A stretch of DNA of 64,000 nucleotides, taken from IMG/VR virus record IMGVR_UViG_3300042508_000526. One strand, given 5' to 3'. The stretch comes from a virus (taxonomy: Duplodnaviria; Caudoviricetes). Positions 13,534 through 53,255 of the stretch are shown here, piece after piece (the stretch's first letter is position 1; each line of letters starts with the position of its first letter). Both the position numbers and the translations under genes were made by a program. The notes beneath the pieces are model-generated. The model did not search any database, was not told the origin of the DNA, and saw nothing but the letters and a program-made list of their open reading frames with translations.

Positions 13534-14355
13534 TTAAAATCCGCCATACGTGTACTTTTTATCGAGCAATGCCTGTATCTTTGCGGCGCGCTGACTGACT
13601 GCGCCGGGCGTTATGTTTAACCGGCGCGCAATGTCTTGCGTGCTGGCTTTTCTACGCCCATTACGCCCAAGAGTCATATCGGCAATCAGCTTGTCGACAG
13701 GGCTGAGGTCGTCGTACACGAAGTTAAACCACGCGTCGTCCGCGCGTGTACTGCCCGGAATCATACTCGCGGTGTCGCCGCCGTAATTTTCTTCTGGGCC
13801 CACGTCGCGGGTAGTCATACCCTCCGCTACTGGCTGATTGAACGCGCGAACTTTTCTGATGCGCCGAACAGACAAACCTGTTGCATCTGCTAGCTCGTCG
13901 TCAGAAGGATCTCTGCCGAGCTGGTCTCGCAGTTCATTTTCGCTTTCGTTCAATCGTGAGAAATCTAAACTAACCTGCTCAGGAATTGATATGATGTTTT
14001 GCGTTTGCGCCGACACACGACGCAGACTCTGCAACTGCGACAACAAATGAGTGCGTACGTTACCCTTTGCCGGGTCATACGTGTCTAGCGCTTTTAATGC
14101 CATTATTTTTGCCCGCGACTTTATAGTCGGGCTGGCGGCTTGCCCGGCGTAGCTCATAACAGCGGTGTCTATAACCGGCTGTAAGCTTTTGATGACTGCG
14201 CTATTGTTTTGCGGCGTCTTAGCCGTTTGCCACTGCGAATAAACAGTGTCAAAGTCGTCGGCAACGCCCGTAGGCTTTTTGCTGGAAAACGGTGCGGGTA
14301 CGTCACCCAGAATGGACGGCATACCGGTCGGTTGTGGTGATAACTTGTCTGCCAT
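13534..14355 (-). CDS. Sigma-70 family RNA polymerase sigma factor (group 3-like, regions 2-4; 273 aa)
   Basis: Region 2 ALDTYDPAKGNVRTHL; region 3 LGRDPSDDELADATGLS; region 4 LSPVDKLI...STQDIARRLNITPGAVSQR HTH. Confidence 0.85.
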   Translation of the reverse strand: MADKLSPQPTGMPSILGDVPAPFSSKKPTGVADDFDTVYSQWQTAKTPQNNSAVIKSLQPVIDTAVMSYAGQAASPTIKSRAKIMALKALDTYDPAKGNVRTHLLSQLQSLRRVSAQTQNIISIPEQVSLDFSRLNESENELRDQLGRDPSDDELADATGLSVRRIRKVRAFNQPVAEGMTTRDVGPEENYGGDTASMIPGSTRADDAWFNFVYDDLSPVDKLIADMTLGRNGRRKASTQDIARRLNITPGAVSQRAAKIQALLDKKYTYGGF

Positions 14356-34034: not shown

Positions 34035-34961
34035 TCACTTGAAGTCGACGCGGGCGAGACCGTTCGTATGGCCGAACGAGCCGCCGGACGTCTGATACGC
34101 AAAGTACTCAAGCATGTAAGCCTCACGACGGATGTACATCGTGGTGGGCTCCAGCTCGTAGTTCTTACCGATGAACTTCGGGCTGGCGAACATGAAGAGC
34201 GAATCGTCGGGGATCAGGTTGCGCTTGATCGTGACGATCCAACGGCAGTTGAGGAAGTTAGTTTCCGCCCAGCCGTTCTTGATGATGTCTTGCGAGAAGT
34301 CACCACCCATTTCGTCGCGACCAAACTTGAGGAGTTCCTTGATCGTGATGTTATTCACGAGGCAGGTTTCAACCTCAAAGTGACTCGGTGTCCGCGGCAT
34401 GACCTTCAGCGCGTCGACGAGCGTCTCACGGGTGATGCCACCCGAGATCTCTTCGTACTGCACCGTGTCCGACAGGGTCACTATCTGGCCGGGAGCCGTA
34501 AGAACCGCATTGAACGCCGCGATAAACTTCGAGTCCTCTTCGGCAAGCATGTCCTTGATCATGTTGTCGCTGAGAACCTGACGGATGTCGATCACGTACG
34601 TACGCAGCTCGTCGACGTCCTTCACAGCGCGGGGCGACACGATCCGGTCAAACATGACGCGGTAGCGCGGGCCACGGATGTAGAAGTTAATCGGGAGCGT
34701 CGCGAACGGAAGCGACACAGCCGCCGGGGAATCGGGTTCTTTGTCCACAACCTTAACGGGCTTGTCAGTATCAACCTGACGGTCAAGCTCGTCGTTGGTG
34801 ATGGTCAGCGGCGGCATGATCCGCCGGTAGAACCCGTCTTCACGCATCTTGGTGCGCGTGAAGTCGTTAACCGCATCGATGGCCTGCTTCTGCATGCCGG
34901 GGGTATCAAGCTGCTCAAAAAGCGTCTCGTTAAGCAGCTGGATTTCTTGCTGAGTGGGCAT
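34035..34961 (-). CDS. Major capsid protein, HK97 fold (308 aa; start moved to ATG 34961)
   Basis: REDGFYRRIMPP; IRQVLSDNMIKDMLAEEDSKFI backbone helix; follows protease, scaffold and decoration genes; GGAGG 8 nt upstream of ATG 34961. Confidence 0.85.
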   Translation of the reverse strand: MPTQQEIQLLNETLFEQLDTPGMQKQAIDAVNDFTRTKMREDGFYRRIMPPLTITNDELDRQVDTDKPVKVVDKEPDSPAAVSLPFATLPINFYIRGPRYRVMFDRIVSPRAVKDVDELRTYVIDIRQVLSDNMIKDMLAEEDSKFIAAFNAVLTAPGQIVTLSDTVQYEEISGGITRETLVDALKVMPRTPSHFEVETCLVNNITIKELLKFGRDEMGGDFSQDIIKNGWAETNFLNCRWIVTIKRNLIPDDSLFMFASPKFIGKNYELEPTTMYIRREAYMLEYFAYQTSGGSFGHTNGLARVDFK

Positions 34962-35001
34962 TTTGGGAACCTCCATGTTCCTGAATTAGTTAGGGATTAG
35001 A

Positions 35002-37481: not shown

Positions 37482-38933
37482 TCATGTGACATAATTTTGC
37501 AATACACAGTGGTTTGCTGTCAACCAATGATTCCCGTGTTTTTCACAAATGGCAGCATAAGCAGCAATCTTATACAGCGCGTAGTGTTGTGCAAGAGCTG
37601 TTTCAGCTGCTCCACTGGCTTGTTTATACGACGGAAACTCATCAGACTGAACACCGCGAAGAACCGCTAAATAAGCACGTTTCTCTACGTTGGTCAGTAA
37701 TACGCTATGGGTGTGTGCTAGTTTTTCTGCCCATACACGTGCACTTGGCGACGCAGCAGGAGCAGGATAGTAGGCGTTGTTTTCTAGTAGCTTAACGACA
37801 TCCGCGTCGTTGGCTAACTTCGAAAATATGTTAGGCAGCGCATTAACCACTGCACTAACAAGTCTCGCATCGGCGGTCTTTACTGTCAACGCTAAAAAGT
37901 CCCGCACAGGCAGAACTACTCCGGCGTCGGCAAGGCCGCGCAACACTTCGGATATTTTAACAGAATAGCAGGCATTTACATCAATAGGTGTTTGCACAGC
38001 CGGCGATGACGCCAGCGCCACCTGCGCCCAGCTATGCCCGGCAGTCGCTGTTTTCTCAGCCGCCGCCAGTTGTGTTAACGCCTCTAACTGCTGCTGTACC
38101 CGCGGTAAAAGCGGCTCGCCGCTGAAGTTAATAGGCGCGGTTACACCCAGCTGCTCGGCGAGTTCGGACCCGGATAGACAACCTGCTGCGGCAGCCTTGA
38201 GCTGCCCAGAGACATAAGCGATCCTGTCAGCCGGCCGGAAAACGTGAGAAATATCAAAAAACGTGGGGTTTGGGTTGTCGGCGTGCAGGACGTGCCCGTC
38301 TTCAAGCACGCGCCCCATGTTGTGCCGCAAGCCGCCGGCTTTACAGTGGCCGCCGCGCTCAACAGAGTCGCAGTACTCTGCGCGCGTCTTGGCTTTGTTT
38401 CCGCACGACGAGCACTTATCGAATGGAATCTTGCAGGCCATGGACACAGCGATGTCGTCGCCCTTAGCCAGCTTTTCTAGTTCCTTGTCGGCAATAAGTC
38501 CGCCGTTTCGATCCGCCGCTTCTTTACTTCCGTTTAGAGCGACGACTAACTCAATTCGCTTCATCGGCTCGTGGTACGCCGACGCTTTTACTAAGCCGAA
38601 AGACTTTGCCGGGTTCTTATTGGCGTGGTCGCGATAGAACCGCGCAAACTTCTCAAACGTTTGGTGGTAGTTACGGCAACAATCGCGCGTAAATCCGTCA
38701 CCGTTTCGGTTCGGTCCGTAGTCCTCAGTAGCGCCGATGGCGATCATATGCACCGGCACTTCGTCTTTGGCAAACTTGATGTTCTCAAGTTTATGCGCAA
38801 ATTCAGCGCCGGCGCGCTTAACAAGCTCTTGGCGATCAGTGCCGATAATGCCGCGGCTTGATACTTTTATCAAAGCGGCTACGGGCTCGCTAAAATCCTG
38901 CGCATGCGGTTGAATGACTTTAATCATGCTCAT
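37482..38933 (-). CDS. Prohead maturation protease (HK97/assemblin-type) with Cys-rich insert (483 aa)
   Basis: GPNRNGDGF; FYRDH (His); VSMAC (Ser); FFDISHVFRPADRIA; CSSC...YC...HC insert. Confidence 0.8.
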   Translation of the reverse strand: MSMIKVIQPHAQDFSEPVAALIKVSSRGIIGTDRQELVKRAGAEFAHKLENIKFAKDEVPVHMIAIGATEDYGPNRNGDGFTRDCCRNYHQTFEKFARFYRDHANKNPAKSFGLVKASAYHEPMKRIELVVALNGSKEAADRNGGLIADKELEKLAKGDDIAVSMACKIPFDKCSSCGNKAKTRAEYCDSVERGGHCKAGGLRHNMGRVLEDGHVLHADNPNPTFFDISHVFRPADRIAYVSGQLKAAAAGCLSGSELAEQLGVTAPINFSGEPLLPRVQQQLEALTQLAAAEKTATAGHSWAQVALASSPAVQTPIDVNACYSVKISEVLRGLADAGVVLPVRDFLALTVKTADARLVSAVVNALPNIFSKLANDADVVKLLENNAYYPAPAASPSARVWAEKLAHTHSVLLTNVEKRAYLAVLRGVQSDEFPSYKQASGAAETALAQHYALYKIAAYAAICEKHGNHWLTANHCVLQNYVT

Positions 38934-38935
38934 AG

Positions 38936-39916
38936 TTATTCACCTGCGGCTGCGCCGCTGCTAAAGCTGTTCAATGCCGCCGGCCCGGCCAGCGCGCCTA
39001 GCAGCGGCAGACCTAAACCCACAAGACCGCCGCCGCGACGGGGTAACCGGCGCAGCGCCTGTCGCAGCTGCGCGCCCGTTAGCTTGCGGCCGGCAGTGCC
39101 GACGCCAGCAGCCGGTTCGGCGGCGATGGCAGTTAAAACGTTTGCCGCGTCATCTGCGTTGCGTCCAAAAAGGCCGCCAAAGAAGTTACCGCGAGCAGTA
39201 TTTCTCGCGGACTGTACGCGCCCCGCTACGGCAGACGGCGACGTAATACCGGCATCTTCTAGGTGCATGCCGACGTCGCGGGCAAGATGATCTTGTCCGC
39301 GCGCCAATGCCTGCAACCGGCCCATTAACGTTGGGTTGTTTACTGGCGGAGCGGCGCGGAGCCGATCTGTTAAATTTTCTGTGATTTTTGTAGCGCCGCT
39401 GGTTGAACGCAGGCTGTCAACGGTTGGCTGCAGTTGTTTGGCAATGGCTGGATCAGCTGCGAGCAGACGGTCTAACTTGCCGTGCGCGTCGATTGCATTG
39501 GCCACTTGCCGGCCGCCGTAAGCGCCAGCACCGGATGCCGCAAGGCCGGCGACTGCGTTAGCCGGGTTATTGTCGTACTTAGCTTCCGCTACAGCTGCAG
39601 GCGGTGTTGCCGGCGTTAGCAGCATGTTCTTTGCCGCCGTAGCCCCGAGTCCGCCGAGGCCGCCCATGAGTGCGTAGTCCAGCGTGGCGCGGCGCTTCTT
39701 CTTACCCTGCAGCATGCCAATAAGCCCACCAGCACCGGCGCCGATCAAGGCGTTTTGGGTGTACGGGCTGCTGAGCACGTCTTTCAGCTCAAGCGCCTCT
39801 TTTTCAAAGTGCAGATCAACTACAGCGGCAGCAAGTTTACTGCGTTCGGGCACCGGTTCGCCCAGCGCAATGCCGGACAGGCCACGAGCAAGTTGTTTTG
39901 CGTCATCTGTGTGCAT
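38936..39916 (-). CDS. Glycine-zipper head-associated protein (326 aa)
   Basis: ALIGAGAGGLIGML, ALMGGLGGLGA and GGGLVGLGLPLLGAL hydrophobic GxxxG segments; KLA and KEA motifs. Confidence 0.6.
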   Translation of the reverse strand: MHTDDAKQLARGLSGIALGEPVPERSKLAAAVVDLHFEKEALELKDVLSSPYTQNALIGAGAGGLIGMLQGKKKRRATLDYALMGGLGGLGATAAKNMLLTPATPPAAVAEAKYDNNPANAVAGLAASGAGAYGGRQVANAIDAHGKLDRLLAADPAIAKQLQPTVDSLRSTSGATKITENLTDRLRAAPPVNNPTLMGRLQALARGQDHLARDVGMHLEDAGITSPSAVAGRVQSARNTARGNFFGGLFGRNADDAANVLTAIAAEPAAGVGTAGRKLTGAQLRQALRRLPRRGGGLVGLGLPLLGALAGPAALNSFSSGAAAGE

Positions 39917-42629: not shown

Positions 42630-45008
42630 TTAGACGTTTGCAACAGCGCTAAGATCAACGTTTTGCGCCGCTTCTTCGGGATACGGTTCAACGGTTTTTT
42701 GCTTAAGGAACAGGATCACGTCGCCCAGCATTTCAAACGCGTTGCGCAGCGAATCCTCAAGCTCGGGCATGTCGGCTTTGCCGTAACGCTCAGCAAACCG
42801 ATCGCCGTGCCAGTAAAACATAAACAGGATACGGCCCAGCTTGTCGAGCCCCTTTGTCAGTTCGCCCATATACCGATCGACCAACGAGTCATCGCGGACG
42901 GCGCGCAGCATCGAACCGACCATGGCCGTGTCAAACACTTCACGCTGCCCGCTCTGCGCGGCGTCGATGACGGACCGCACATCCTTTTGGTCAAACATCG
43001 GGTTGGGGTTGTAAATCTGCCGATCCGTGTTGCTGGCGCTCATGCCAGATACCGGCAAGCCAACGTCGATGCCAAGCTGCGTCGGCACGCTTGTACCCAT
43101 GATGCTTTCGCCGCCCATAACGGCACCCGGATCAGACGGCGCGTTCGGCGCGCTGTTCACAAGCATCGGCCCGCCATACGGATCAGCGTACTTCACGCGG
43201 CACTCAAACTTACGTTTCGCGGAAGCCTGCTTTAAGATCTCGCGGGCAGCTTCTTCACGCAGACCGTGATGCTCAACAAGCGTAACGAGCGCTTTGATCG
43301 GGCTGACCGCCGCGGCTTTGTTAATCGTGACTTCGGTGCCGGTGTGGTACACCGTCAGCGACGCTGTCTTCTGGAACAACGCCAGTTGCGCGTCAACAAG
43401 ATTGCCGGGCTGCAGAGCCGGCGGATCACTCTCGCCGCAACCGCAGGCGCTTTGATCTTCGGCTGTTTCCTTGTCGTCTTCTCCGCGGCTGACGTTCAAC
43501 AGCTTAAAGCCTTCGGGGACAAAGATGTCGCCCATGCTCGCCCGCAGGCTGGAGCCCTTCTTGCCGTTTAAATGCAGACGGACACCGTCGCGCCACTTGT
43601 CGTAGTTTAACGGGTCGTTGTAGCAGCAGGGCGAAATCGTGCCTTTCGGCGGATACTTGGAGTGATCTTCTAGATGCACTTCGTAGCATGTATCGCCGTC
43701 GCCTTTGCCGTATTCTTTGATAACACGAAACGGCGCGGTTGTGTCACCGCGTCGGCTCAGCGCTACATAACGGCTCGACTTGTTCGGAACACTGTTGGCG
43801 TCGGGCAGGCCATCAAACCACTTGTCGAACTCTTCGCCTTCGATCCGCGATAGCGCAAAGACCTGATCGGCACGGGTGTTAAGCCAGTTACGCGCGCCCT
43901 CGACGCGAATAACGGTCACAAAGTTTTCGCGCTTTGCGGCACCCTGCGGATGAACGGCGACATAGCAGCGCTCAACTCCACCCGGCTTGACCAGAATCTC
44001 GTACAGCCCGCTCTCGGTCGGGTTAAACAGTTTCTTTTCGACTTGGATATGATACGGTACCGATACGTTATCACGATCACGCTGGTCGAGAATCAGTACG
44101 CCGTCGCGCAGCAGCTTTTCTTGATCTTCTTCCGTATGGCCAGCCGGCAGCTTGGTCTGCACTGTGGCGTCATACGTGATAACTTTCAGTCCCGTTGCCG
44201 ATTCGGGCTTTTCGGGTGCTTCTGAAAGTACGCTCGCTACTTTCGGCTGATTTTCGCGCGCCTTGGCCGACGCGATAGCTTGCTTAATAACATCTAGCCC
44301 GTGGAACTCGTCGATAGCCGCGGCAATTTGCGGCGCATGCTTGCAGGTGTTAACAAGCGTGCTGATCATTTGCAGACCAGCTTCTTTGAGCAAAAACGTT
44401 TTTAGATTCAGCGCGTCGCCAATTTCTTTAAACGTCTGTTCGGTGTTCAGGGTTGCCGACTTCGCAAACGCACCGATGGCGGCGGCCATCATCTCTTTGA
44501 GCGTCGGCTGCGCCGATCCAAACTTTGCCGGGCTCCGCGACAGCTGCGTAAAGTCTGGCTGGCGCTGACCAAGCCGCGACAACGACCGGTCGACGCCGCT
44601 ACCGAGAATGTTCGGCTTGCGGTTGATTAGATAATTAATCCAGTTTTCCTTGAGCGGCACGAACATGTCCTGATTCTTGATGTACAGGAGTTCGTGGCCC
44701 TTGAGGTCGCCATTGAGGAAGAATACCGGCGCATACAGCCAGTTAGAGCCGACCTTAAACGCAAAGACGCCAACGGCCTTTGTGTTTTCTTTGTTGCGGT
44801 CGAGAAGCTGGAAACCGATTTCGTGGTCGAGCAGTTTGGGCGCTGAGTCGCGCAGATAGGCGTGCGCCAAGTTGCTAAACGACTGCTCAAAGGACGTGTC
44901 GTCGCCTTTTCCGCCGAGATCAGCATATTTGGTTTGCGTGCGATCGTACGACCGCATTACGTTTAACCAATGCTTTACAGACGACTCTTTAGCTTTTTTG
45001 TTGTACAC
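42630..45008 (-). CDS. Large head-associated protein (792 aa; start moved to GTG 45008)
   Basis: GGAGG 6 nt upstream of GTG; K-x-A motifs (KYA, KSA, KEA, KTA, KAA, KQA, KYA) separate apparent domains. Confidence 0.65.
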   Translation of the reverse strand: MYNKKAKESSVKHWLNVMRSYDRTQTKYADLGGKGDDTSFEQSFSNLAHAYLRDSAPKLLDHEIGFQLLDRNKENTKAVGVFAFKVGSNWLYAPVFFLNGDLKGHELLYIKNQDMFVPLKENWINYLINRKPNILGSGVDRSLSRLGQRQPDFTQLSRSPAKFGSAQPTLKEMMAAAIGAFAKSATLNTEQTFKEIGDALNLKTFLLKEAGLQMISTLVNTCKHAPQIAAAIDEFHGLDVIKQAIASAKARENQPKVASVLSEAPEKPESATGLKVITYDATVQTKLPAGHTEEDQEKLLRDGVLILDQRDRDNVSVPYHIQVEKKLFNPTESGLYEILVKPGGVERCYVAVHPQGAAKRENFVTVIRVEGARNWLNTRADQVFALSRIEGEEFDKWFDGLPDANSVPNKSSRYVALSRRGDTTAPFRVIKEYGKGDGDTCYEVHLEDHSKYPPKGTISPCCYNDPLNYDKWRDGVRLHLNGKKGSSLRASMGDIFVPEGFKLLNVSRGEDDKETAEDQSACGCGESDPPALQPGNLVDAQLALFQKTASLTVYHTGTEVTINKAAAVSPIKALVTLVEHHGLREEAAREILKQASAKRKFECRVKYADPYGGPMLVNSAPNAPSDPGAVMGGESIMGTSVPTQLGIDVGLPVSGMSASNTDRQIYNPNPMFDQKDVRSVIDAAQSGQREVFDTAMVGSMLRAVRDDSLVDRYMGELTKGLDKLGRILFMFYWHGDRFAERYGKADMPELEDSLRNAFEMLGDVILFLKQKTVEPYPEEAAQNVDLSAVANV

Positions 45009-45088
45009 GGCCAGCCTCCATGCGGCACACAATTAACAAACCGCTGTAATTTACCGACTTGCGGTCCCTATATCGTACAAAAACTAGC

Positions 45089-46969
45089 TCAGGGCTTCCA
45101 CCCGCTAGTTGTACCCGTCACGCCAAACTGCTCGCCTTGGGCTAAAGACGGCACATAACTGCTGCCGGCTGTATCGCTACTTAACCCCCGGTGAACGCTA
45201 TTCATAAGCCCCTTTTCCTGATATGAGCCCAGCATTCGGGTCATCCAGTCAGGGTCGTTCGAAATGTTTGCCATGCCGCGCACCATTTCGGGTTGGAACG
45301 GCGGCGGCTCTTTGTGGGCTTGTATGTTTTTAATTCCGTACTTATTCAGGTTGTTCAATACCCCGCGCCCGATTTTTGTGCCGATCGAGTAGTGCAGCAC
45401 CGGTTTTTCGAGGTAATGGCCTGTTAGCGTTTGCGGGGCGCCAGCCACACTACCTTCACGCGGCGTCCAGTTTCTCTCCAACATCGCGTACGGCACAATG
45501 TCGTCCGGCGCATAATTCCCGTACTCGTCTGTGAGGCGCACGTGATTTACAAGTCCGCGGGATAGCAGCTCAATATTGCGGCGATGCGCTCCGATGCCGC
45601 TATTACCCATAACTTGGCGCATAGCTTGCACAAAATAGCGCCGCCCTTCGCCGATACCCTTGTGCTTTACGATTTCCGACGGATTCGGCATTCCGTCAGA
45701 TAGAACGTCGCCAGCCTCCAGATCATCACCCTTTTTGATCGCCAACGATCTTTCCGTCGGCACATAATGATCTTGGCCGTTAATTTGCACGTAGTATCCG
45801 CCCTGCGGAGCCGGCCTGATTTCTTGCACGCGGCCATCAGTTTGGGCGTGTGCGGCGCCGTCCGGGTATTTCTTCGGGACCTGTACAAGGGCGTTGAGCG
45901 CTTTAAAACCCGAGATTGCGCCAGCGCCTCCGACGCCGCCAGAGTGTTTCGAGCTAATCTGGCTCTGTGTGACAGGTTCAGACAGCGCTTGGGCCGCAGC
46001 GATACCCACATAATCTCCAGCCGGCGGTAAACGGCCTTTTTCTCTAAAACCGACATCGCGCGCGTATACGCCGCCATCAGCCGGGCCTCCTACGATTGGG
46101 CTACGCACAAGAATATCTTTTGTGCCCATCTCTTTGATGTCGCGCAGGATCTTGGGCGTTAATACGGTGTTGCGCTTGTACGGCCCGACAGGACGCGCAA
46201 GTAACGCGCCTTCGTTGTCCGGGTCGTCAACATCGGTCGGATAACCACGCTCTAGCGCATCAGCTTTTCGGTCTTCATCATCGTCGTCATCGTCGTCGGC
46301 CGTGACCAGCAAACGATGCGTCATCTGCGCGAGCTGTTTACCGTAGAAACCAGCGTCCGCAGTCGCCGTCTTAAGATCGATAACACCTTTGCGCGTGCCG
46401 AAAGCGCCGGCAAAATACTCGACAGGTCGTAGCCCCTGCCCGTAGCCGCGAAGAACGGGAATTGGAATTGGATCGCCGCGGTGATCCAGATACTGCATGT
46501 CTGCGCCGATCAGCGAATTCAATTGATATTTATTGCCAACGCCAGAGCCAGTGATTTGATGCACAAGCGGATTGTCTTGCGACTCGGCTTCTTTGTACAC
46601 CTTGTCGAGTAGTTCCGACTGCGTGTTAGCGGCTAATTCCAGCAGTTTTACTTGCTTTTCTTTGTCGCCCAATTTCTTGTTCGACAAGATTTCTTGCATT
46701 GCGTGCTGCGTGCGGATCTGCGCCGCTTTAACGGCCAATGTCGGCCGAATGTGCTTCAGGCTAAACGACAGCCCTGCGCTAGAATATCCCGCGTCCTTGC
46801 CGACGTCGTGCAGCCGCTTCATTACATCCCGGTACTTGTCGGGATGCTTTTGTGCTAGCTCAGTGGCTAGCGCGCCCATGCTTTTCTTGGTTAATACCCG
46901 ATCGTAATCCCGCATTTCTGGCGGGAGCGCGTCGTTAATCAGGATTTGACCAAGCGTTGTTTTAAGCAT
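45089..46969 (-). CDS. rpoC: RNA polymerase beta' subunit, C-terminal half (626 aa; start moved to ATG 46969)
   Basis: TTLGQILIN; bridge helix FGTRKGVIDLKTATADAGF; trigger loop AAQALSEPVTQSQISSKHSGG; HRRNIELLSRGL; WMTRMLGSYQEKGL. Confidence 0.92.
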   Translation of the reverse strand: MLKTTLGQILINDALPPEMRDYDRVLTKKSMGALATELAQKHPDKYRDVMKRLHDVGKDAGYSSAGLSFSLKHIRPTLAVKAAQIRTQHAMQEILSNKKLGDKEKQVKLLELAANTQSELLDKVYKEAESQDNPLVHQITGSGVGNKYQLNSLIGADMQYLDHRGDPIPIPVLRGYGQGLRPVEYFAGAFGTRKGVIDLKTATADAGFYGKQLAQMTHRLLVTADDDDDDDEDRKADALERGYPTDVDDPDNEGALLARPVGPYKRNTVLTPKILRDIKEMGTKDILVRSPIVGGPADGGVYARDVGFREKGRLPPAGDYVGIAAAQALSEPVTQSQISSKHSGGVGGAGAISGFKALNALVQVPKKYPDGAAHAQTDGRVQEIRPAPQGGYYVQINGQDHYVPTERSLAIKKGDDLEAGDVLSDGMPNPSEIVKHKGIGEGRRYFVQAMRQVMGNSGIGAHRRNIELLSRGLVNHVRLTDEYGNYAPDDIVPYAMLERNWTPREGSVAGAPQTLTGHYLEKPVLHYSIGTKIGRGVLNNLNKYGIKNIQAHKEPPPFQPEMVRGMANISNDPDWMTRMLGSYQEKGLMNSVHRGLSSDTAGSSYVPSLAQGEQFGVTGTTSGWKP

Positions 46970-46970
46970 G

Positions 46971-47210
46971 TTACTTTGGCCAGATAATTTGCTGCATTGG
47001 CTTTGGCTTGAAATCAGATACGACAACCGTTTTTTCGATGCCAAGCGCCCGCAACATCGAATGGAAATCTGGCTCACCCGGCGTGGAATACACGATCGCT
47101 TCGTCTACTTGAATAGCGACGAAGATCGGATTGCCCAGATCGTCTTCAACTACAACACTGTGCGCTTTCTGCTCAGTAGGTTGTAATTTGTGCTGCGTTT
47201 TAACGAGCAT
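46971..47210 (-). CDS. Hypothetical protein (79 aa) between the RNAP genes
   Basis: Coupled to both neighbours (TAACATG to rpoC-C). Confidence 0.65.
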   Translation of the reverse strand: MLVKTQHKLQPTEQKAHSVVVEDDLGNPIFVAIQVDEAIVYSTPGEPDFHSMLRALGIEKTVVVSDFKPKPMQQIIWPK

Positions 47211-47928
47211 TGCCGTTGAGACTCCGAACCATTGCAGCTATAGCGTTTGCTTTAATCTGCATGTCGGTCGGCTCATCGGGATTTTGCCGGTCAACGGGAT
47301 GCCCGATATACGACGCCGACTTTGTTTCAGTCTGCTGCCACCACGCAGCCTTCGCGTTGGGATCGGGTTGTGGCGCATTGGGCGGAAGCGGACCGCCGGG
47401 AGGAAGCGGACCACCGGGCGGCTGCATACCGCCGCCTTGTGCGTTCGGGTCTTGCGGCGGCGGTGCCATCGGTCCGCCGGGCAGCGCTGTCTCAGCCGGC
47501 GGGGCACCTGTCGTTCCCGGGGGCAGCACAAGTGACTCCGGCGGAACTTGAACACCCATCGCGTTCATAATCGCGGTGAGCTGCTGCTGCATGTTGTAAA
47601 GCCGGTAGTCGAGCATCTGCATCATTTGCTCGGGCTTGAGTTTCTGCTGAGTGGCTGGAGCCATCCCCGGTGCCGCCGGGGCGGCAGGCGCAGCTGGCAT
47701 CGCGGGAGGAGCGGCACCCATCGCAGCCGGATCTACCGGCGCGGCACCACCAGCCATCATGGCCGGATCGGCAGGGGGCGCAGCTGCGGCTGCCGCGGGA
47801 TCAGCCGCCGGATCTACCGGCGGTGCACCACCTGCGGCGGCCGGATCAACGGCGGCACCGGGGACGAAAGCGGCTTTTTCAAATCGCGCTTTTGCAAGCG
47901 CAATTAATTCTGGATTGACTGTAAACAT
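47200..47928 (-). CDS. Pro/Ala/Gly-rich disordered protein with central helix (242 aa; start moved to ATG 47928)
   Basis: GGAGG RBS; PPVDPAA and GGPLPP repeats; QMMQMLDYRLYNMQQQL helix. Confidence 0.65.
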   Translation of the reverse strand: MFTVNPELIALAKARFEKAAFVPGAAVDPAAAGGAPPVDPAADPAAAAAAPPADPAMMAGGAAPVDPAAMGAAPPAMPAAPAAPAAPGMAPATQQKLKPEQMMQMLDYRLYNMQQQLTAIMNAMGVQVPPESLVLPPGTTGAPPAETALPGGPMAPPPQDPNAQGGGMQPPGGPLPPGGPLPPNAPQPDPNAKAAWWQQTETKSASYIGHPVDRQNPDEPTDMQIKANAIAAMVRSLNGNAR

Positions 47929-47950
47929 GTGACCTCCGTGTGCGCCAAAG

Positions 47951-50900
47951 TTACTTATTATCTTCCACAATATGAACCGGGGTGTCTACCTCTATTTCGC
48001 CGCGCCGATACGCCAGCACGGCGTCTTGCCGGTTTCTAAACACGCGCGGCTTGGCTTTGTTATTGATGCGGCTAGACGCCACGTATAAGCCAGTTTGATA
48101 GTCTTTATTGGGCACGTAGTGCGCCCGGAAGCTCGACGCCGCGAACAGATTTTTACTCGGCAGCATCTTGTCGACAGCTTCTTTTGCTGCATCTTCAGTC
48201 GACGGCACGTGATACTGCATAGCGTCGCCGTCAAAGTCGGCGCCGAATCCCTTTGTGATAACGGGGTTTACTTCCATGACCTTGTTCTTTGTTAGCCGCG
48301 GGTAGAACGCCATCATTCCATAGCGATGCAGAACCGGCGCGCGATTGATGATAATTGGCCGGGAATTCATTTGCTTGTCTAGCTCGGCCGCTGCTTCTTT
48401 GTTCTTTTTCTCAACCGCTTCCAATGCTTGCATGCGCGGTAACCCACGGCGCACTAGCCCGCGCACCACAAACGGCTTGTAGATATCCCACGCCTTTTCT
48501 TCGGGCAAGGCCACCTGATCCATGTCTAGATCGGGGTTTGGCGTAATTACCGCGCGGCCGACGAGGTCGACCGTCGAGCTTAATAATTTGCGCTGCACAG
48601 TGCCGTACTTTGGTGACGCCCCAAAAATGTGGCGTAAAAACCCTTTTACGTTTCGTTCAGCGTTTTTGGGCTGCTGCGGTTCGCCTAGGCCAGTCACGCC
48701 CTTCATTGCGTCGTACACACTGAGTCGCTCGTCGCCGTACTCAGCTAGTGCGCCGGACGTATCTTTCAGCGTGTTGTTGGCGTCCAGCAACTCCTTGTAT
48801 AAGTAATTTGCGTCAGCTACGAGCGGCAGCTTTTTGCTGCCCATCGTACTAACGGGCCGAAACAGAGGCGGCAGCACCGGCACGCGTGTTAGCATCCAGT
48901 CTTTTGGATGCACGCCGGTAGACTCCGCACTCTTTAAAAAGCCAAGCCGTCGTACCGCTGCGTCGCGTAACGTTTTTCGGCCGGATTTGATATCTTCGCG
49001 CGCCTGTTCAATGGCCTTTGGCAAATTGATTTTGGCTAGCGCGTCTGCAATCGCTTTTGGGCCGGTTTGGTCGCCAAGCTGGTCCGTACCCGCTAACACG
49101 CCGCGAAATTTTTTCTCCGTCAAGCCCAGCACGCGGCGGATCGGATCTTCCATCACCGGATTCGGCATGGGCTCGTGTAATGTTATTTTTGACCATCGGT
49201 TACCGCCGTGGCCGCCAGTAAGTGACTCGTCGAACAGGCCGCCCTTGATCGGCTTAAGCCTGCCCTTCCAGTCAACCGTCTCGGCGTTTTCGATTTCACG
49301 TGCGCCGGCTAATCCGTCGACGTCTTTGTCTGTAAGCGCCATAACGTTTGTGCGTGTACCGCTGCGCACAACGTTAATGCCAGACGCCTTCAGCTGCCCG
49401 ACAAACTTTTCGTATACGTGTGGGACGCGCGGAAGCGGCGGCGTGTAACCGGCCATGAACTGCGACCAGTACTCTGGATTAGCTTGGCCGCGCACCATCT
49501 TGGCGTCACGAATTACTTTGCCAGCGCCGTGCGACAGCAAGGCGCCAAGATCCAACATGCCAACCCGCTTAGCGCCTTCTGATCCACCCTTCGCCGGAGT
49601 GCCTTCCGCGGTGTATGCGCCCGTTGCACGCCCCTGCGCTTTGGACTCGCTGGTGTGATGCAGTTTCATAAAAAAGCGCGAGCCGGTAAGCACACCCGGA
49701 ATCTTTCGACCTGTCTCCGGGTCGGTTAAGTCTTCTGTATCAGATAACCCGTTCCTGTCTAATTCTTTCTGCGCAAACTCGACAAGATCTTTCTGGTCAT
49801 CGAAGTCTTTGATCTTAAACGGCTTGCCAGTCTTTGCGGCAACTTTGCCCAACGCCGCCTCAATAACCTGCGCCGGATTAACACGCGAAATTAAACCTAG
49901 CGGGCTAACCAGCACCTCGAACGGATTGCCGTCTTTGTCTTGCGGCATCTGGTCATCGGGGATGATGTCTGCCACAACGCCTTTATCGCCAAAGCGGCCT
50001 GTAAGCTTGTCGCCAACGTCCATCGCGGCTTGGTTTTTAACAACGACGCTCACGCCCTTTTTTGTGTGCACAACGTCCGTAACGACTCCGGGCGCATGGT
50101 GTTCCCACGTCACCGTCTCGTTGGTGAAGCTGCCCGCGCGGCCGCGATGCACTTTGCCGTAAACCGTGTCTTTTTTCTTAGCTACCAGCACCAGCGGATC
50201 GCCAAAGTTAACTGTGGTGCCCTTTTTAATTGCGCCCTGATCGTCAAAGTTGTCCAGCATCTTGCGCTCGTATTCGCGGGGGAAAAGACTCACGAACGCC
50301 TTTTTGCCAACGTGAGTGTTATCGTCCCATTCCGCTTCGTGCTGGTACATGTGCTCTGACGTAAGCCGCTTGGCCGCAGACTCGGAGATCACTACGGCGT
50401 CTTCGTAGTTTTTGCCGCGAAAGGGCAGATAAGCTACGCGCATGTTCAGACCCAGCGCGGCGCTCCCTTGATCGTCCGTAAAGTTCGACTTGGCAAGCAG
50501 CTGTCCCGGCTTTACGTAATCGCCCGGTTTAACCAGCGGCGTTTGATGTAAAAACGTTTTTCGGTTGTACGGCATCTCGTTGTACAGCTCGATCGTTTTC
50601 TTTTCGCCGTTCTTGTCGCGCAGCACGATCGCATCTGGCGTAACGTCGACAACCTGCCCGGCTTCAGCCGCTCTCGCCGCGCCAAGCTTTTCGCCCATCT
50701 CGTCTTCGTGCGATACGTTTTCATCGTCAAACTTGGCCGACTGCACAAGCGGCGTTTGGGCGCCAACGAGCGGAAGCGCCTGCGTAAACATGCGACTACC
50801 CATGATCACGCGCTGCCCTTTAACCATGGCTTTCATCGGCACCATGTTTGTGAGCGCAGAAAACGTCGAATCCATGTTTGACAGGCTGTACTGCGCATCT

Positions 50901-52378
50901 TTGCGGTCGACGTACTTCATCTTGCCGTTTACAAGCGCAGCCACTACCGGCATTTTGTTATTTGTCTCGCCCGGGAACACGAGCGGCGTATCCGCTAGTT
51001 CCTGCGGCGTCTTGTATTCCGTCTCACCTGTTTTCATGTTGATCACAGGCGTGTACACCTTCCCATCGGCGCCCTTCATAGCGCCCCGCGCAAACCGCAT
51101 ATCAACGCCAACTTTGCCGGACTCAGGCGTGCGCAGATAGTCGATAAAGCCCAGATGGCTGGGCTGCACACTGCGCGACTCTGCCGGCACGGCGTCGAGT
51201 GACGCGATGCCGCCTTCGCCCATTCGCGTAACGCGTGTTTGGTGGTCAAAAATTTCGGCGGGGTTGATCTCTTCAAGACTCGATCCAAGACCAGACCCGA
51301 TCAGCGCAGCAGAAATCGCTTTATCGAAGACGCCGCTCGGAATGTGATCAATCGACTTCTTCGCCGTGGCTTTCCACAGCAACTTGTTTAAACCCTGCCG
51401 ATCTTTGGTGAAGCGCTCAGAGATGAGATCCTCTGGCCCGACGACAGATTGAAACACCATGTTGTCGCGGTCGTCACTCTCGGCTTCGCGTCGGTTAACA
51501 GCTAGCAGCTTTTTTGTAATTGCCAGAATGGTGTCTGGCGTCATGTTTTTGTATTCGCTACCTAGCGTGCGGCGTGTGACTTCAGGATCAAGCTCTGTTT
51601 TGGCAAACTCTTCAAGCAACGCCTTGGCTTTGATCGTGGCGTCTGCTCCGGCGACTGGTTTATTCACAAAGCGACTGTACAGCTTGTCGAGCGTACCGGC
51701 GTCGCCTTTTTCCATATTGACGGCCGTTATCTCGTTGCCCCACGCCTCGCGGATCTGGCTGTCCGTAACGCCCATGGTTTTCAGCAGCGGCATTAGCGGA
51801 ATCTGCGCCTGTCCGACGCTGATTTTAAACACGCCCGTTTTCGGATCTAAAAAGTAACGGTGCGAGCGGCCTTTGCCCGGCAGTGTGTTTACGTGCGCTT
51901 CGATTTCGCCGTTGTCTTTTTCGCGGGTGAAGACGCCGGACTTAAGCCGCATCTGATGCGCCAGCGTGTACTCGACACCGCCGTTGACGAACGTGCCAGC
52001 ATCTGTCAGATAAGGCACATGCGCGATAGTTGCACGCTTCTGCCCAAGCGGCTGTCCGGTTTTGTTATCAACTAGCGCCCACGTACCCTGTAAACGACGC
52101 GACAGCGAGCCGCGCGAGAGCACTGCCTTTTTTTGGTCGGCCCGCGTAAATCGTTCGGGCCCCGTGTAGCCGACGTCTTGCAGCTGCAGCGTATACAAAT
52201 CGTTTTGCAGCGGGCGCAAACCCTGCGCGCTTGTCAGCGCCTGATTGAAGATGTTGTCGCGCATCGAGCCGATGTCGCCAAACGTCCGCATTGGTGGCGG
52301 CGTTGTCGGCGGCGCTGTCGGCACCGCGGGCGGCTGGCTGCTGAACTGCTTCAGCGGCGGCAATTCAGGCGCTGGCAT
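47951..52378 (-). CDS. rpoBC: RNA polymerase beta subunit fused to beta' N-terminal half (1475 aa)
   Basis: beta motifs: RTPESGKVG, GKNYEDAVVISE, GDKLTGRFGDKGV, FMKLHH. beta' motifs: PVLPPLFRP, VDLVGRAVI, NRAPVLH, GADFDGD. Single ORF. Confidence 0.95.
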   Translation of the reverse strand: MPAPELPPLKQFSSQPPAVPTAPPTTPPPMRTFGDIGSMRDNIFNQALTSAQGLRPLQNDLYTLQLQDVGYTGPERFTRADQKKAVLSRGSLSRRLQGTWALVDNKTGQPLGQKRATIAHVPYLTDAGTFVNGGVEYTLAHQMRLKSGVFTREKDNGEIEAHVNTLPGKGRSHRYFLDPKTGVFKISVGQAQIPLMPLLKTMGVTDSQIREAWGNEITAVNMEKGDAGTLDKLYSRFVNKPVAGADATIKAKALLEEFAKTELDPEVTRRTLGSEYKNMTPDTILAITKKLLAVNRREAESDDRDNMVFQSVVGPEDLISERFTKDRQGLNKLLWKATAKKSIDHIPSGVFDKAISAALIGSGLGSSLEEINPAEIFDHQTRVTRMGEGGIASLDAVPAESRSVQPSHLGFIDYLRTPESGKVGVDMRFARGAMKGADGKVYTPVINMKTGETEYKTPQELADTPLVFPGETNNKMPVVAALVNGKMKYVDRKDAQYSLSNMDSTFSALTNMVPMKAMVKGQRVIMGSRMFTQALPLVGAQTPLVQSAKFDDENVSHEDEMGEKLGAARAAEAGQVVDVTPDAIVLRDKNGEKKTIELYNEMPYNRKTFLHQTPLVKPGDYVKPGQLLAKSNFTDDQGSAALGLNMRVAYLPFRGKNYEDAVVISESAAKRLTSEHMYQHEAEWDDNTHVGKKAFVSLFPREYERKMLDNFDDQGAIKKGTTVNFGDPLVLVAKKKDTVYGKVHRGRAGSFTNETVTWEHHAPGVVTDVVHTKKGVSVVVKNQAAMDVGDKLTGRFGDKGVVADIIPDDQMPQDKDGNPFEVLVSPLGLISRVNPAQVIEAALGKVAAKTGKPFKIKDFDDQKDLVEFAQKELDRNGLSDTEDLTDPETGRKIPGVLTGSRFFMKLHHTSESKAQGRATGAYTAEGTPAKGGSEGAKRVGMLDLGALLSHGAGKVIRDAKMVRGQANPEYWSQFMAGYTPPLPRVPHVYEKFVGQLKASGINVVRSGTRTNVMALTDKDVDGLAGAREIENAETVDWKGRLKPIKGGLFDESLTGGHGGNRWSKITLHEPMPNPVMEDPIRRVLGLTEKKFRGVLAGTDQLGDQTGPKAIADALAKINLPKAIEQAREDIKSGRKTLRDAAVRRLGFLKSAESTGVHPKDWMLTRVPVLPPLFRPVSTMGSKKLPLVADANYLYKELLDANNTLKDTSGALAEYGDERLSVYDAMKGVTGLGEPQQPKNAERNVKGFLRHIFGASPKYGTVQRKLLSSTVDLVGRAVITPNPDLDMDQVALPEEKAWDIYKPFVVRGLVRRGLPRMQALEAVEKKNKEAAAELDKQMNSRPIIINRAPVLHRYGMMAFYPRLTKNKVMEVNPVITKGFGADFDGDAMQYHVPSTEDAAKEAVDKMLPSKNLFAASSFRAHYVPNKDYQTGLYVASSRINNKAKPRVFRNRQDAVLAYRRGEIEVDTPVHIVEDNK

Positions 52379-52382
52379 ATAA

Positions 52383-53255
52383 CTACCCCGCCTGCGCTTG
52401 TTCGGCTCGCTGCTTCAGGGCGACAATCTCGTCGGGATCTACGTACGTCGGCAGAATACCGGCGATACGCGCCTTGGATTGCGCCGCCTCTTCTACAGCC
52501 TTGGCACGAGAACGCTCGCGGGCCCGGTCGTACATTAACTTGGCCGCAAGTCCGCCCAGTCCTAAACCAGTGGCCACATAGGCGCCACCCACGGCCGACG
52601 GAACACGTTTGGCGGTGTCCCACATGCTCGTCAGCATCTCTAGCGGGTTCGCCTGCTTCTCCGCAGCGGCCTTTTGCCCGGCGAGGTCATACACACCGTC
52701 TAGTTTGTTCGCCGACGGGCCGACCAGCGCGGCATAGTACTCTTTTTCGGCCGCATCAATCTCGGCCTGCCGATCGCGTTTCTTCTTACGGTTGTGCAGC
52801 GCTTGAATAAGTTTATAGCCGCCGTATGTGCCTAGTGCACCGGCGCCCAGCGTAGCAGCCGTACCAAACGACGAACGAATAACGTTTGGATCGTACGAGT
52901 TCGGCGCTTTGGGTGTAACCGCCGGCGTAAACGGCTTTAGAAAATCAACAACGGAGTCGGGCAGTGCGCGGCCAATACCGCCAGCGACGTCGTCGTAGGC
53001 ACCGGCCATTTTGTTGCCCGGCACTACAGCTTCCGCTGGGTTTTCGTCTTCTTCGACTTCGGGCTTGCGGTCGCGAATCGCTTGCGACAAGCCGCGGGCA
53101 AGATAATAAAGCCCTGCAGCGCCAGCGCCGAGACCGAGACCACCAACACCAGTGCGCAAAATGCGATCACCCCAAAAACGCTGGAAGTCTTGGGGCGTAG
53201 GTTTGCCAGCAACGGCGGGTTGAACGTCATTTGCGAGCTTTGCGGTAGTCGTCAT
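52383..53255 (-). CDS. Glycine-zipper head-associated protein (290 aa)
   Basis: GVGGLGLGAGAAGLYYL, AATLGAGALGTYGGY and ATGLGLGGLAAKL; KLA, KMA, KAA and KQA motifs. Confidence 0.6.
   Translation of the reverse strand: MTTTAKLANDVQPAVAGKPTPQDFQRFWGDRILRTGVGGLGLGAGAAGLYYLARGLSQAIRDRKPEVEEDENPAEAVVPGNKMAGAYDDVAGGIGRALPDSVVDFLKPFTPAVTPKAPNSYDPNVIRSSFGTAATLGAGALGTYGGYKLIQALHNRKKKRDRQAEIDAAEKEYYAALVGPSANKLDGVYDLAGQKAAAEKQANPLEMLTSMWDTAKRVPSAVGGAYVATGLGLGGLAAKLMYDRARERSRAKAVEEAAQSKARIAGILPTYVDPDEIVALKQRAEQAQAG

What the first reader, a model, noticed from the sequence alone, without database searches (positions are those of the whole stretch)
45089..52378. Phage RNA polymerase with an unusual subunit partition: beta fused to beta'-N, beta'-C separate
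Seen: the beta C-terminal motif PHVYEKFVGQLKASGINVVR joins the beta' N-terminal motif NVMALTDKDV...KGGLFD through only about 4 residues (SGTR, ~49355-49366). The fusion ends at AYRRGEIEVDTPVHIV, and the second gene restarts at TTLGQILIN. Established: whole beta-beta' fusions occur in Helicobacter and Wolbachia; cyanobacteria split beta' just after the TTxGR motif; phiKZ-type enzymes split both subunits. Here the split falls just before TTxG and is combined with a fusion, so it matches none of these. The motifs are strikingly bacterial-like. No alpha or omega gene is visible in the window. The genes lie among head-protein genes, suggesting a virion-packaged or late polymerase (inference).
Basis: partly seen in the sequence, partly recalled or inferred. 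Interest (0 to 1): 0.85.

Follow-up and report, generated by a model that had tools for sequence, protein, structure and literature searches.

The report
Two-chain phage RNA polymerase, beta fused
A 203-kb lake-water phage encodes a stripped-down bacterial-type RNA polymerase made of only two chains (beta joined to the first half of beta-prime, plus the second half), a layout shared by a huge uncultured phage family and a few cultured phages but not yet described as such in the papers I could search.

Summary
On the minus strand, 47951-52378 is one 1475-aa ORF in which a bacterial-type beta runs through five residues (SGTRT, 49349-49363) into the N-half of beta-prime. It ends three residues before the TTxG motif. 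The C-half (626 aa) starts at ATG 46969. It is not adjacent: a P/A-rich ORF and a 79-aa ORF fill the 981 nt between.

It is no artefact. Contigs from four independent lake metagenomes bridge the junction and the split without indels. Of the 150 best cluster representatives (50% identity), 146 span the junction and 146 stop at the same point.

Salmonella phage Arash (gp206/gp216) and Vibrio phages D69, D148 and D181 share the layout. The Arash paper found both proteins and a sigma homologue in particle preparations, but calls them beta and beta-prime.

This complete genome has one polymerase set, one sigma-like gene (13534-14355), and no alpha or omega by Pfam. The beta-prime zinc-binding domain is deleted, and all three proteins lack cysteine.

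Best reading: a sigma-dependent, alpha-less, two-chain polymerase, probably packaged and injected. Packaging is inferred, not shown. The searched literature does not describe this partition.

This scan noted the same layout on other genomes (e1-5377686, e1-5403756, e1-5390922; follow-up e1-5340489).

The parts
47951..52378 (-). Fused gene, 1475 aa: beta joined to the N-half of beta-prime. No cysteines.
   Evidence: ORF and translation. Pfam Rpb2_3, Rpb2_6, Rpb1_1, Rpb1_2. Best PDB matches are bacterial beta and beta-prime. Zero Cys.
52292..52378 (-). N-terminal 29-aa extension: MPxPELPPLK plus a Pro/Ala-rich spacer. It precedes the conserved beta N-terminal R-x-F-G motif.
   Evidence: Alignment of N-termini of close homologues. 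Comparison with the E. coli beta N-terminus is from the Salmonella sequence and my own reading.
49364..52291 (-). Beta-like portion (aa 30-1005). Includes GRFGDKG (aa 794) in place of GRHGNKG.
   Evidence: phmmer against Salmonella beta, residues 117-1337.
49349..49363 (-). Beta/beta-prime junction SGTRT (aa 1006-1010). Head-to-tail join with no length variation across the family.
   Evidence: Bridged by contigs of 4 independent runs.
47951..49348 (-). Beta-prime N-half (aa 1011-1475): clamp helices and the catalytic double-psi barrel. Ends ...VHIVEDNK, at about E. coli beta-prime 568.
   Evidence: phmmer against Salmonella beta-prime 159-545, and collinear alignment across the split.
49199..49216 (-). 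Site where the beta-prime zinc-binding domain (E. coli ~64-98, four Cys) is replaced by GGHGGN.
   Evidence: Alignment to Salmonella beta-prime. The same deletion is present in all 38 family members aligned.
48224..48241 (-). Mg-binding motif ADFDGD (aa 1380-1385), preceded by Gly instead of the usual Asn (GADFDGD).
   Evidence: The preceding residue varies in the family (G, N, A, T, S).
47200..47928 (-). Intervening ORF 1: 242-aa Pro/Ala/Gly-rich, cysteine-free protein with a GGAGG ribosome-binding site. Function unknown.
   Evidence: Conserved in close relatives (236 aa in L011). No Pfam hit.
46971..47210 (-). Intervening ORF 2: 79-aa protein whose stop abuts the beta-prime-C start. A conserved small family kept between the two RNAP genes.
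   Evidence: 54 clusters. A profile also finds the syntenic ORFs of distant relatives L017 (E 1.5e-4) and L018 (E 2.9e-3). AF2 pLDDT 86.6, five strands plus one helix. No PDB match.
45089..46969 (-). Beta-prime C-half, 626 aa, starting MLKTTLGQ. Contains the bridge helix and trigger loop. No cysteines.
   Evidence: Pfam Rpb1_5. PDB beta-prime matches. 100%-identical 626-aa database protein. Zero Cys.
13534..14355 (-). Sigma-70-family protein, 273 aa, cysteine-free, in the virion-gene block. Homologue of Arash gp10.
   Evidence: Pfam Sigma70_r3, 40.2 bits against a cut-off of 25.3, plus weak region 4. PDB SigA E 9e-7 over residues 82-260. tblastn to Arash gp10, E 1e-17.

Best explanation
Shown: this complete 203-kb phage genome encodes a single, minimal, bacterial-type multisubunit RNA polymerase built from two polypeptides.
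- Chain 1 (1475 aa) is beta joined head-to-tail to the beta-prime N-half. Both catalytic double-psi barrels, the clamp helices and the Mg-binding DFDGD therefore sit on one chain.
- Chain 2 (626 aa) is the beta-prime C-half, with the bridge helix and trigger loop.
- The cut lies at about E. coli beta-prime 568/569, three residues before TTVGR.
- The genome has one sigma-70-family gene and no recognisable alpha or omega.
- The beta-prime zinc-binding domain is deleted, and chain 1, chain 2 and sigma have no cysteine at all.
- The partition is ancient and is conserved across a very large, intein-ridden metagenomic family and in cultured phages Arash and Vibrio D69/D148/D181.

Inferred: the genes are expressed late with the virion genes. 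The two chains plus sigma are packaged in the capsid and ejected with the DNA. They then reassemble in the host and transcribe early genes from sigma-type promoters, independently of host polymerase. The covalent beta to beta-prime-N tether probably substitutes for the missing alpha-dimer assembly platform. The zinc-free, cysteine-free make-up fits passage in an unfolded state.
For: Architecture:
-.
- Independent support: contigs of 4 lake runs bridge the junction and the split, no indels. 24 runs hold the stretch.
- Family conservation: all top 150 representatives have E<1e-174. 146/150 span the junction, 146/150 end within 15 aa of the same point, 0/150 contain beta-prime-C. Junction length is invariant.
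- Beta-prime-C homologues are stand-alone, 617-666 aa. It is always a separate downstream gene in diverse relatives.

Gene content:
- Single enzyme set.
- Sigma.
- No alpha or omega.

Packaging, indirect:
- Arash gp206 had the highest spectral count of the particle proteome (3516). gp216 had 1210 and sigma gp10 had 467 (PMC10585845). That is about 2.0-2.3 spectra per residue for all three (my arithmetic).
- This phage's three proteins are their homologues.
- Zero Cys in 2374 residues against a genome mean of 1.36%.
- The capsid-protein homologue lies 10 kb downstream on the same strand.
Against: - There are no virion data for this phage.
- The Arash preparation also yielded many plainly non-structural enzymes (ribonucleotide reductases, ligases, kinase, primase), and no CsCl step is mentioned. 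Carry-over of an abundant late protein is therefore possible.
- No junction-spanning peptide has been reported, so the mature protein could be cleaved.
- That the phage sigma pairs with the phage core rather than with host core is not shown.
- Host alpha or omega could be borrowed.
- Neighbouring genes gave almost no PHROG or Pfam hits, so 'virion module' rests on a few Arash homologies.
Confidence: 0.62

Rival explanations
1. Same two-chain enzyme, but not packaged. It is made during infection and transcribes middle or late genes, while host RNA polymerase (perhaps redirected by the phage sigma) reads the early genes.
For: There is no direct virion evidence for this phage. The Arash particle list contains many non-structural enzymes. 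Other phages with bacterial-like beta and beta-prime keep them in the replication block next to a sigma gene (Cobetia phage Carin-5, Rhizobium phage RHph_Y65).
Against: In Arash the fused chain is the most-detected protein of all, above the capsid protein. Here the genes sit with capsid and tail homologues, not with replication genes. The strict absence of cysteine in core, sigma and a few other large proteins is hard to explain for a purely cytoplasmic enzyme.
Confidence: 0.25
2. The gene is fused, but the mature enzyme is not. The 1475-aa precursor is cut at or near the junction (for example by a prohead protease), giving ordinary beta and beta-prime-N chains.
For: Packaged proteins of large phages are often processed. 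No junction-spanning peptide has been reported.
Against: The junction is five residues long and length-invariant, with no conserved cleavage-like insert, across 38 diverse members. That fits a structural tether better than a linker meant to be cut.
Confidence: 0.08
3. The fusion or the split is an assembly or annotation artefact. Alternatively, the two beta-prime halves are joined at RNA or protein level by an intron or a split intein.
For: The family is riddled with inteins. A relative carries a group I intron in the fused gene.
Against: - Four independent runs bridge both sites without indels, and hundreds of assemblies agree.
- No Rfam intron lies in 44500-53000.
- The two halves align collinearly to beta-prime with no spare residues for split-intein halves.
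- Two conserved ORFs lie between the halves here.
- In Arash, nine genes lie between them, six on the opposite strand.
Confidence: 0.01
4. A recent capture of host rpoB-rpoC that is decaying in this phage.
For: The best PDB matches are bacterial enzymes.
Against: Identity to any bacterial beta or beta-prime is only about 27-34%. The layout is conserved over clusters that are themselves only 45-63% identical. Catalytic elements are intact.
Confidence: 0.02

Closest known systems
Salmonella phage Arash gp206 / gp216 / gp10 (OQ632216; PMC10585845) and Vibrio phages D69, D148, D181
   Same: - Same fused beta::beta-prime-N chain (1525-1527 aa; 31-32% identity over aa 56-1470 in one piece).
- Same cut point just before the TTxG-equivalent, and the same zinc-domain deletion.
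- Separate beta-prime-C of 606-609 aa, and a sigma homologue.
- Also shared: terminase, portal, capsid protein and a helicase.
   Different: Only about 24-32% identical. In Arash, nine genes lie between the two RNAP genes (six on the opposite strand) and the portal gene sits just upstream. Here two small ORFs lie between and the portal is about 75 kb away. The published record calls the chains 'beta' and 'beta-prime' and does not note the fusion.
phiKZ / AR9-type jumbo-phage multisubunit RNA polymerases (PMC7598289, PMC7824862)
   Same: Phage-encoded and alpha-less. Beta-prime is cut after the catalytic barrel. One enzyme form travels in the virion.
   Different: Those enzymes split beta into 2-3 pieces, come as two paralogous sets, use a gp68/gp226-type fifth subunit and have no sigma. 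Here beta is whole and fused, there is one set, and a sigma-70-type gene is present. tblastn shows no similarity at E 1e-3.
mReC phages (Weinheimer & Aylward 2020, PMC7481178) and cultured phages with separate beta and beta-prime (Cobetia phage Carin-5, Rhizobium phage RHph_Y65)
   Same: Compact, bacterial-like beta (~900-1360 aa) and beta-prime (~900-1130 aa) encoded by tailed phages, often next to a sigma gene.
   Different: Beta and beta-prime are separate full-length genes there. That study's filter required NADxDGD. The copy here and most close homologues read GADFDGD and would fail it, though about a third of the family keep Asn. P0001 scores higher against Salmonella subunits than against Carin-5 or Y65.
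Whole RpoB-RpoC fusions of Helicobacter and Wolbachia (my own knowledge)
   Same: Beta C-terminus joined directly to the beta-prime N-terminus.
   Different: There the entire beta-prime is included, and alpha, omega and the zinc sites are kept.
Cyanobacterial and plastid split beta-prime (gamma/RpoC1 plus RpoC2)
   Same: Beta-prime is cut in the stretch after the catalytic barrel.
   Different: The cyanobacterial cut maps to about E. coli 602-617. The phage cut is at 568/569, before rather than after TTVGR. This comes from PDB alignment coordinates, not a direct alignment. Beta is separate in cyanobacteria.
Virion-packaged RNA polymerases of N4-like and crAss-like phages (my own knowledge)
   Same: The proposed life-cycle role: the enzyme is injected with the DNA to start early transcription.
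   Different: Unrelated or extremely divergent folds and single giant polypeptides. These are not bacterial-type sigma-dependent cores.

Membership tests
Bacterial-type multisubunit RNA polymerase core | Beta catalytic barrel (Rpb2 domain 6) with conserved Lys | tested here: met
   PF00562, E 2.3e-52. GRFGDKG aligns to GRHGNKG with the Lys kept.
Bacterial-type multisubunit RNA polymerase core | Beta-prime catalytic barrel with the NADFDGD Mg triad | tested here: met
   PF00623, and ADFDGD at aa 1380-1385. The three Asp are kept, but the leading Asn is Gly.
Bacterial-type multisubunit RNA polymerase core | Bridge helix and trigger loop (Rpb1 domain 5) | tested here: met
   PF04998, E 1.5e-22, in the separate 626-aa chain. 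Aligns to beta-prime 720-946 and 1181-1265.
Bacterial-type multisubunit RNA polymerase core | Alpha dimer assembly platform | tested here: not met
   No PF01000 or PF01193 match in the complete genome at E 0.1, while controls ring in 14/14 genomes. Use of host alpha is not excluded.
Bacterial-type multisubunit RNA polymerase core | Omega subunit | tested here: not met
   No PF01192 match. The 79-aa neighbour is beta-rich, unlike helical omega.
Bacterial-type multisubunit RNA polymerase core | Beta-prime zinc-binding domain and second zinc site | tested here: not met
   The N-terminal zinc domain is replaced by GGHGGN. Both chains have zero Cys.
Bacterial-type multisubunit RNA polymerase core | Sigma-70-family initiation factor | tested here: inconclusive
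   A sigma-like gene is present and the beta-prime clamp helices are retained (my reading). Pairing with the phage core is not shown.
Arash-type fused phage RNA polymerase | Single chain carrying beta plus beta-prime up to the residues before TTxG; separate ~610-aa beta-prime-C; zinc domain deleted | tested here: met
Arash-type fused phage RNA polymerase | Presence of the chains in virions | not testable with these tools
   Known only for Arash, from one proteome.
phiKZ/AR9-type phage RNA polymerases | Beta split into 2-3 chains; two paralogous sets; no sigma | tested here: not met
   Beta is intact and fused. There is one set. Sigma is present. No tblastn similarity.
mReC phage RNA polymerase | Separate beta and beta-prime genes, each of 800 aa or more, with NADxDGD | tested here: not met
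   Fused and split layout, with GADFDGD.
Whole RpoBC fusion | Complete beta-prime on the fused chain | tested here: not met
   0/150 family representatives contain the beta-prime-C region.
Cyanobacterial-type split beta-prime | Cut at the gamma/beta-prime boundary (about E. coli 602-617) | tested here: not met
   Gamma extends 67 residues beyond the point where the fused chain ends. The phage cut is at 568/569.

The most novel reading that the evidence does not exclude
This family represents the smallest natural bacterial-type RNA polymerase: two chains plus a sigma, with no alpha, omega, zinc or cysteine. The covalent beta to beta-prime-N tether replaces the alpha-dimer assembly platform. This lets the enzyme be unfolded, shot through the tail and refolded unaided to launch early transcription. 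It would be an independent third solution, beside the N4/crAss and phiKZ types, to the problem of bringing your own polymerase.
Probability: 0.35. Interest if true: 0.8.

Novelty: new variant of a known kind. Interest (0 to 1): 0.62.

Why it matters
Phage multisubunit RNA polymerases are known, and a review asks how their large subunits hold together without alpha (PMC7598289). This family offers a natural answer to test: beta tethered to the catalytic half of beta-prime.

The family is abundant. At least 150 clusters at 50% identity were found, and near-identical DNA occurs in at least 24 lake metagenome runs. It has cultured members on tractable hosts (Salmonella Typhimurium ATCC 14028, Vibrio). 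Biochemistry, cryo-EM and rifampicin tests are therefore feasible now.

A two-chain, zinc-free, cysteine-free, sigma-dependent core would be a useful minimal model for RNA polymerase assembly and evolution. The family also partly escaped the main metagenomic survey of phage RNA polymerases, whose filter demanded NADxDGD; only the members that keep Asn could have passed.

Tried and rejected
- Complex prediction of beta-prime-C with the 79-aa ORF: no verdict (score 0.00). It is not evidence either way.
- Fold searches of the 79-aa model (Foldseek PDB, VIA-align wide): no match. The idea that it is an omega analogue has no support, because the model is beta-rich.
- PHROG and Pfam scans of ten neighbouring genes: one PHROG of unknown function and one sub-threshold Pfam hit, otherwise nothing. 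The sigma gene was found in the Pfam batch.
- Near-identical DNA in the phage collection: none.
- RNA runs: no RNA holder listed, so nothing can be said on expression.
- Search for a phage-specific promoter: only a short TTTTTTTAGCTAT motif behind terminator-like hairpins, 6-7 copies. This is inconclusive.
- Tubulin in this genome: none, though one relative has it.
- Intron or split-intein joining of the two beta-prime halves: rejected.
- A direct residue alignment to cyanobacterial gamma was not obtainable, so that mapping rests on PDB hit coordinates.
- No tree was built.
- Literature searches for a description of this partition found none. The library lacks most subscription journals.

Full report
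**What is in the sequence**

All long ORFs of the 64-kb window lie on the minus strand. window:47951-52378:- is a 1475-aa ORF. Its Pfam hits run Rpb2_3, Rpb2_6 (beta), then Rpb1_1, Rpb1_2 (beta-prime N-half). window:45089-47077:- carries Rpb1_5, the beta-prime C-half.

The true start of the second gene is the ATG at 46969 (MLKTTLGQ...). A 100%-identical 626-aa protein is on record, and relatives are called the same way.

The two RNAP genes are not contiguous. The 981 nt between them hold two ORFs.
- A 242-aa Pro/Ala-rich ORF (47200-47928) behind a GGAGG ribosome-binding site.
- A 79-aa ORF (46971-47210) whose stop abuts the next start, TAAcATG.

**Exact anatomy**

I aligned the chains to Salmonella beta and beta-prime, which share E. 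coli numbering.
- The beta C-terminal motif ...SGINVVR is followed by SGTRT (aa 1006-1010; nt 49349-49363).
- NVMALTD... follows, which matches beta-prime ~AIKIALAS. The join is therefore head to tail, and the first ~15 residues of E. coli beta-prime are absent.
- The beta-prime zinc-binding domain (E. coli ~64-98) is replaced by GGHGGN.
- Concatenating the end of chain 1 with the start of chain 2 aligns collinearly to beta-prime with nothing missing. The cut falls at about residue 568/569, three residues before TTVGR (572-576).
- The catalytic motif reads GADFDGD (aa 1379-1385). Beta has GRFGDKG for GRHGNKG.
- The bridge helix and trigger loop are on chain 2.
- The cyanobacterial gamma chain runs 67 residues beyond the point where chain 1 ends. 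By PDB coordinates the cyanobacterial cut maps to about E. coli 602-617. That is the same linker region but not the same site.

**Not an artefact**

The stretch occurs near-identically in at least 24 lake-water metagenome runs from many studies. I laid the contigs of four runs that are not the likely source. Each bridges the junction, and together they bridge the stop of chain 1, both small ORFs and the start of chain 2. No insertions or deletions were seen.

**How widespread it is**

- The word-indexed search returned more than 120 clusters at 79-95% identity, many on 200-212-kb contigs.
- The exhaustive search with aa 850-1475 returned 150 representatives of 50%-identity clusters, all with E<1e-174.
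- By local phmmer, 146/150 span the junction, 146/150 end within 15 residues of the same C-terminus, and none contains beta-prime-C.
- Junction length is invariant, and the zinc-domain deletion is universal, in 38 diverse members including Arash and D69.
- In four further relatives sampled (one close, three diverse), beta-prime-C is a separate downstream gene with 2-6 small genes in between.
- Stand-alone beta-prime-C homologues are 617-666 aa.

**Cultured relatives**

Among 50,697 phage records, only Salmonella phage Arash and Vibrio phages D69, D148 and D181 match aa 56-1470. In Arash and D69 this is one uninterrupted chain; in D148 and D181 an intron splits the match in two.
- In Arash, gp206 (1525 aa) and gp216 (606 aa) are annotated 'beta' and 'beta-prime' and lie 4.7 kb apart.
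- The Arash paper reports gp206 as the most-detected protein of the particle proteome (3516 spectra). gp216 had 1210 and the sigma factor gp10 had 467.
- Per residue that is about 2.3, 2.0 and 2.0 (my arithmetic), which is compatible with a stoichiometric complex.
- The same list also contains many non-structural enzymes, and no gradient step is mentioned. The evidence is suggestive, not conclusive.
- This phage shares with Arash the terminase, portal, capsid protein (34035-34976), another structural protein (37482-38933), a helicase and sigma.

**The rest of the transcription kit**

The window belongs to a complete 203,206-bp record with direct terminal repeats.
- It has one beta match and one beta-prime match only.
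- It has no alpha (PF01000, PF01193), no omega (PF01192) and no tubulin.
- It has one sigma-70-family ORF at 13534-14355: Sigma70_r3 above cut-off, weak region 4, and PDB SigA E 9e-7.
- Chain 1, chain 2 and sigma contain no cysteine in 2374 residues, against a genome mean of 1.36%.
- Of 103 close intein-free chain-1 homologues, 100 have no cysteine. All 116 chain-2 homologues have none.

This agrees with an earlier follow-up on another genome (e1-5340489), and I re-tested it here.

**Comparison with known kinds**

- phiKZ/AR9 enzymes split beta, come in two sets and lack sigma. They are not detectably similar here.
- mReC phages and cultured phages such as Carin-5 and RHph_Y65 keep separate full-length beta and beta-prime.
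- The mReC filter required NADxDGD. The copy here and most close homologues read GADFDGD and would fail it, although a sizeable minority of the family keep Asn.
- Chain 1 scores better against Salmonella subunits (E 3e-58 and 9e-49) than against Carin-5 or Y65.
- Whole rpoBC fusions include all of beta-prime.
- Full-text searches found no description of a beta::beta-prime-N plus beta-prime-C partition in phages.

**Mechanism**

Shown: a conserved two-chain catalytic core with intact catalytic elements, retained clamp helices, a cognate-looking sigma, and no alpha, omega, zinc domain or cysteine.

Inferred: late expression with the virion genes, packaging, ejection with the DNA, self-assembly aided by the covalent tether, and sigma-directed early transcription.

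The main rival is that the enzyme is not packaged and serves middle or late transcription. Cleavage of the precursor at the junction is possible. It is disfavoured by the short, invariant junction.

Joining of the two beta-prime halves by an intron or a split intein is rejected. No Rfam intron lies in the region. No spare residues remain at the cut. In Arash, genes on the opposite strand lie between the two halves.

**Side observations**

- The fused gene is a hot spot for mobile elements. 128/150 representatives carry at least one large insertion, at 15 or more recurrent sites, including directly after DFDGD.
- Pfam confirms intein splicing and LAGLIDADG domains in these insertions.
- Close 1800-aa homologues carry a 346-aa intein after residue 419.
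- Vibrio phage D181 carries a group I intron with a homing endonuclease in the beta part.
- The 79-aa ORF defines a small conserved family kept between the two RNAP genes even in distant relatives. It has a confident beta-rich model that matches nothing solved.

**Verdict**

This is a real, ancient and very common but so far undescribed partition of a phage-encoded bacterial-type RNA polymerase, so a new variant of a known kind. Packaging and alpha-independence remain to be shown, and cultured relatives make both testable.

Noticed in passing
Family of window:47951-52378 (proteins P0124-P0273; P0015, P0027, P0041 etc.): The fused RNAP gene is heavily invaded by inteins. 128 of 150 cluster representatives carry 1-5 large insertions at 15 or more recurrent sites (for example after aa 419, 607, 793, 831, 935, 1259 and 1385, the last directly after DFDGD). 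Pfam confirms Intein_splicing, LAGLIDADG_3 and Hom_end. Beta-prime-C homologues also occur with inteins. The copy in this window has none.
   Followed up: partly
L020:1931-2211 (Vibrio phage D181, OZ196140): A group I intron (RF00028, 100.7 bits), followed by a homing-endonuclease gene, interrupts the beta part of the fused gene in D181 and D148. The gene is intact in D69.
   Followed up: yes
window:17312-21772, 38936-39916, 52383-53255, 47200-47928, 46971-47210, 13534-14355; also outside the window (window-relative 75051-77555, 73514-75109, 71229-71861, 65553-66050, 91052-91759, and -25384 to -24443): Besides the RNAP chains and sigma, a small set of other ORFs, some very long (1486 aa, 834 aa), have no cysteine at all, against a genome mean of 1.36%. 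They may mark the set of proteins that leave the capsid with the DNA.
   Followed up: partly
window:46971-47210 (-): The 79-aa ORF between the RNAP genes belongs to a conserved family. Its confident AF2 model (five strands plus one helix) matches no solved structure. Its role is unknown.
   Followed up: yes
Whole genome G000 (window = C1:48270-112269): Almost all of about 250 genes lie on the minus strand, in long co-directional runs. This is an unusually unidirectional 203-kb genome.
   Followed up: no
window:59924 and five to six other sites outside the window (window-relative 81115, 81508, 88820, 129804): The motif TTTTTTTAGCTAT recurs directly behind GC-rich hairpins with a T-run. These are possible terminator-promoter units. 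Bacterial-style intrinsic terminators seem to be in use.
   Followed up: partly
window:48242-48244 (codon before ADFDGD): The otherwise near-invariant Asn of NADFDGD is Gly here. It varies (G, N, A, T, S) across the family, which suggests relaxed or altered sugar discrimination at the active site.
   Followed up: partly
L018:1425-2609 (distant relative, JGI 3300037504): A relative with the same fused RNAP carries a tubulin-family gene about 5 kb upstream. This genome has none.
   Followed up: partly
window:57131-57952 (-): The homologue of this 273-aa ORF in close relatives carries PG_binding_1 and Peptidase_M10 domains, so it is a likely cell-wall-degrading virion or lysis protein about 5 kb upstream of the RNAP gene.
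   Followed up: no
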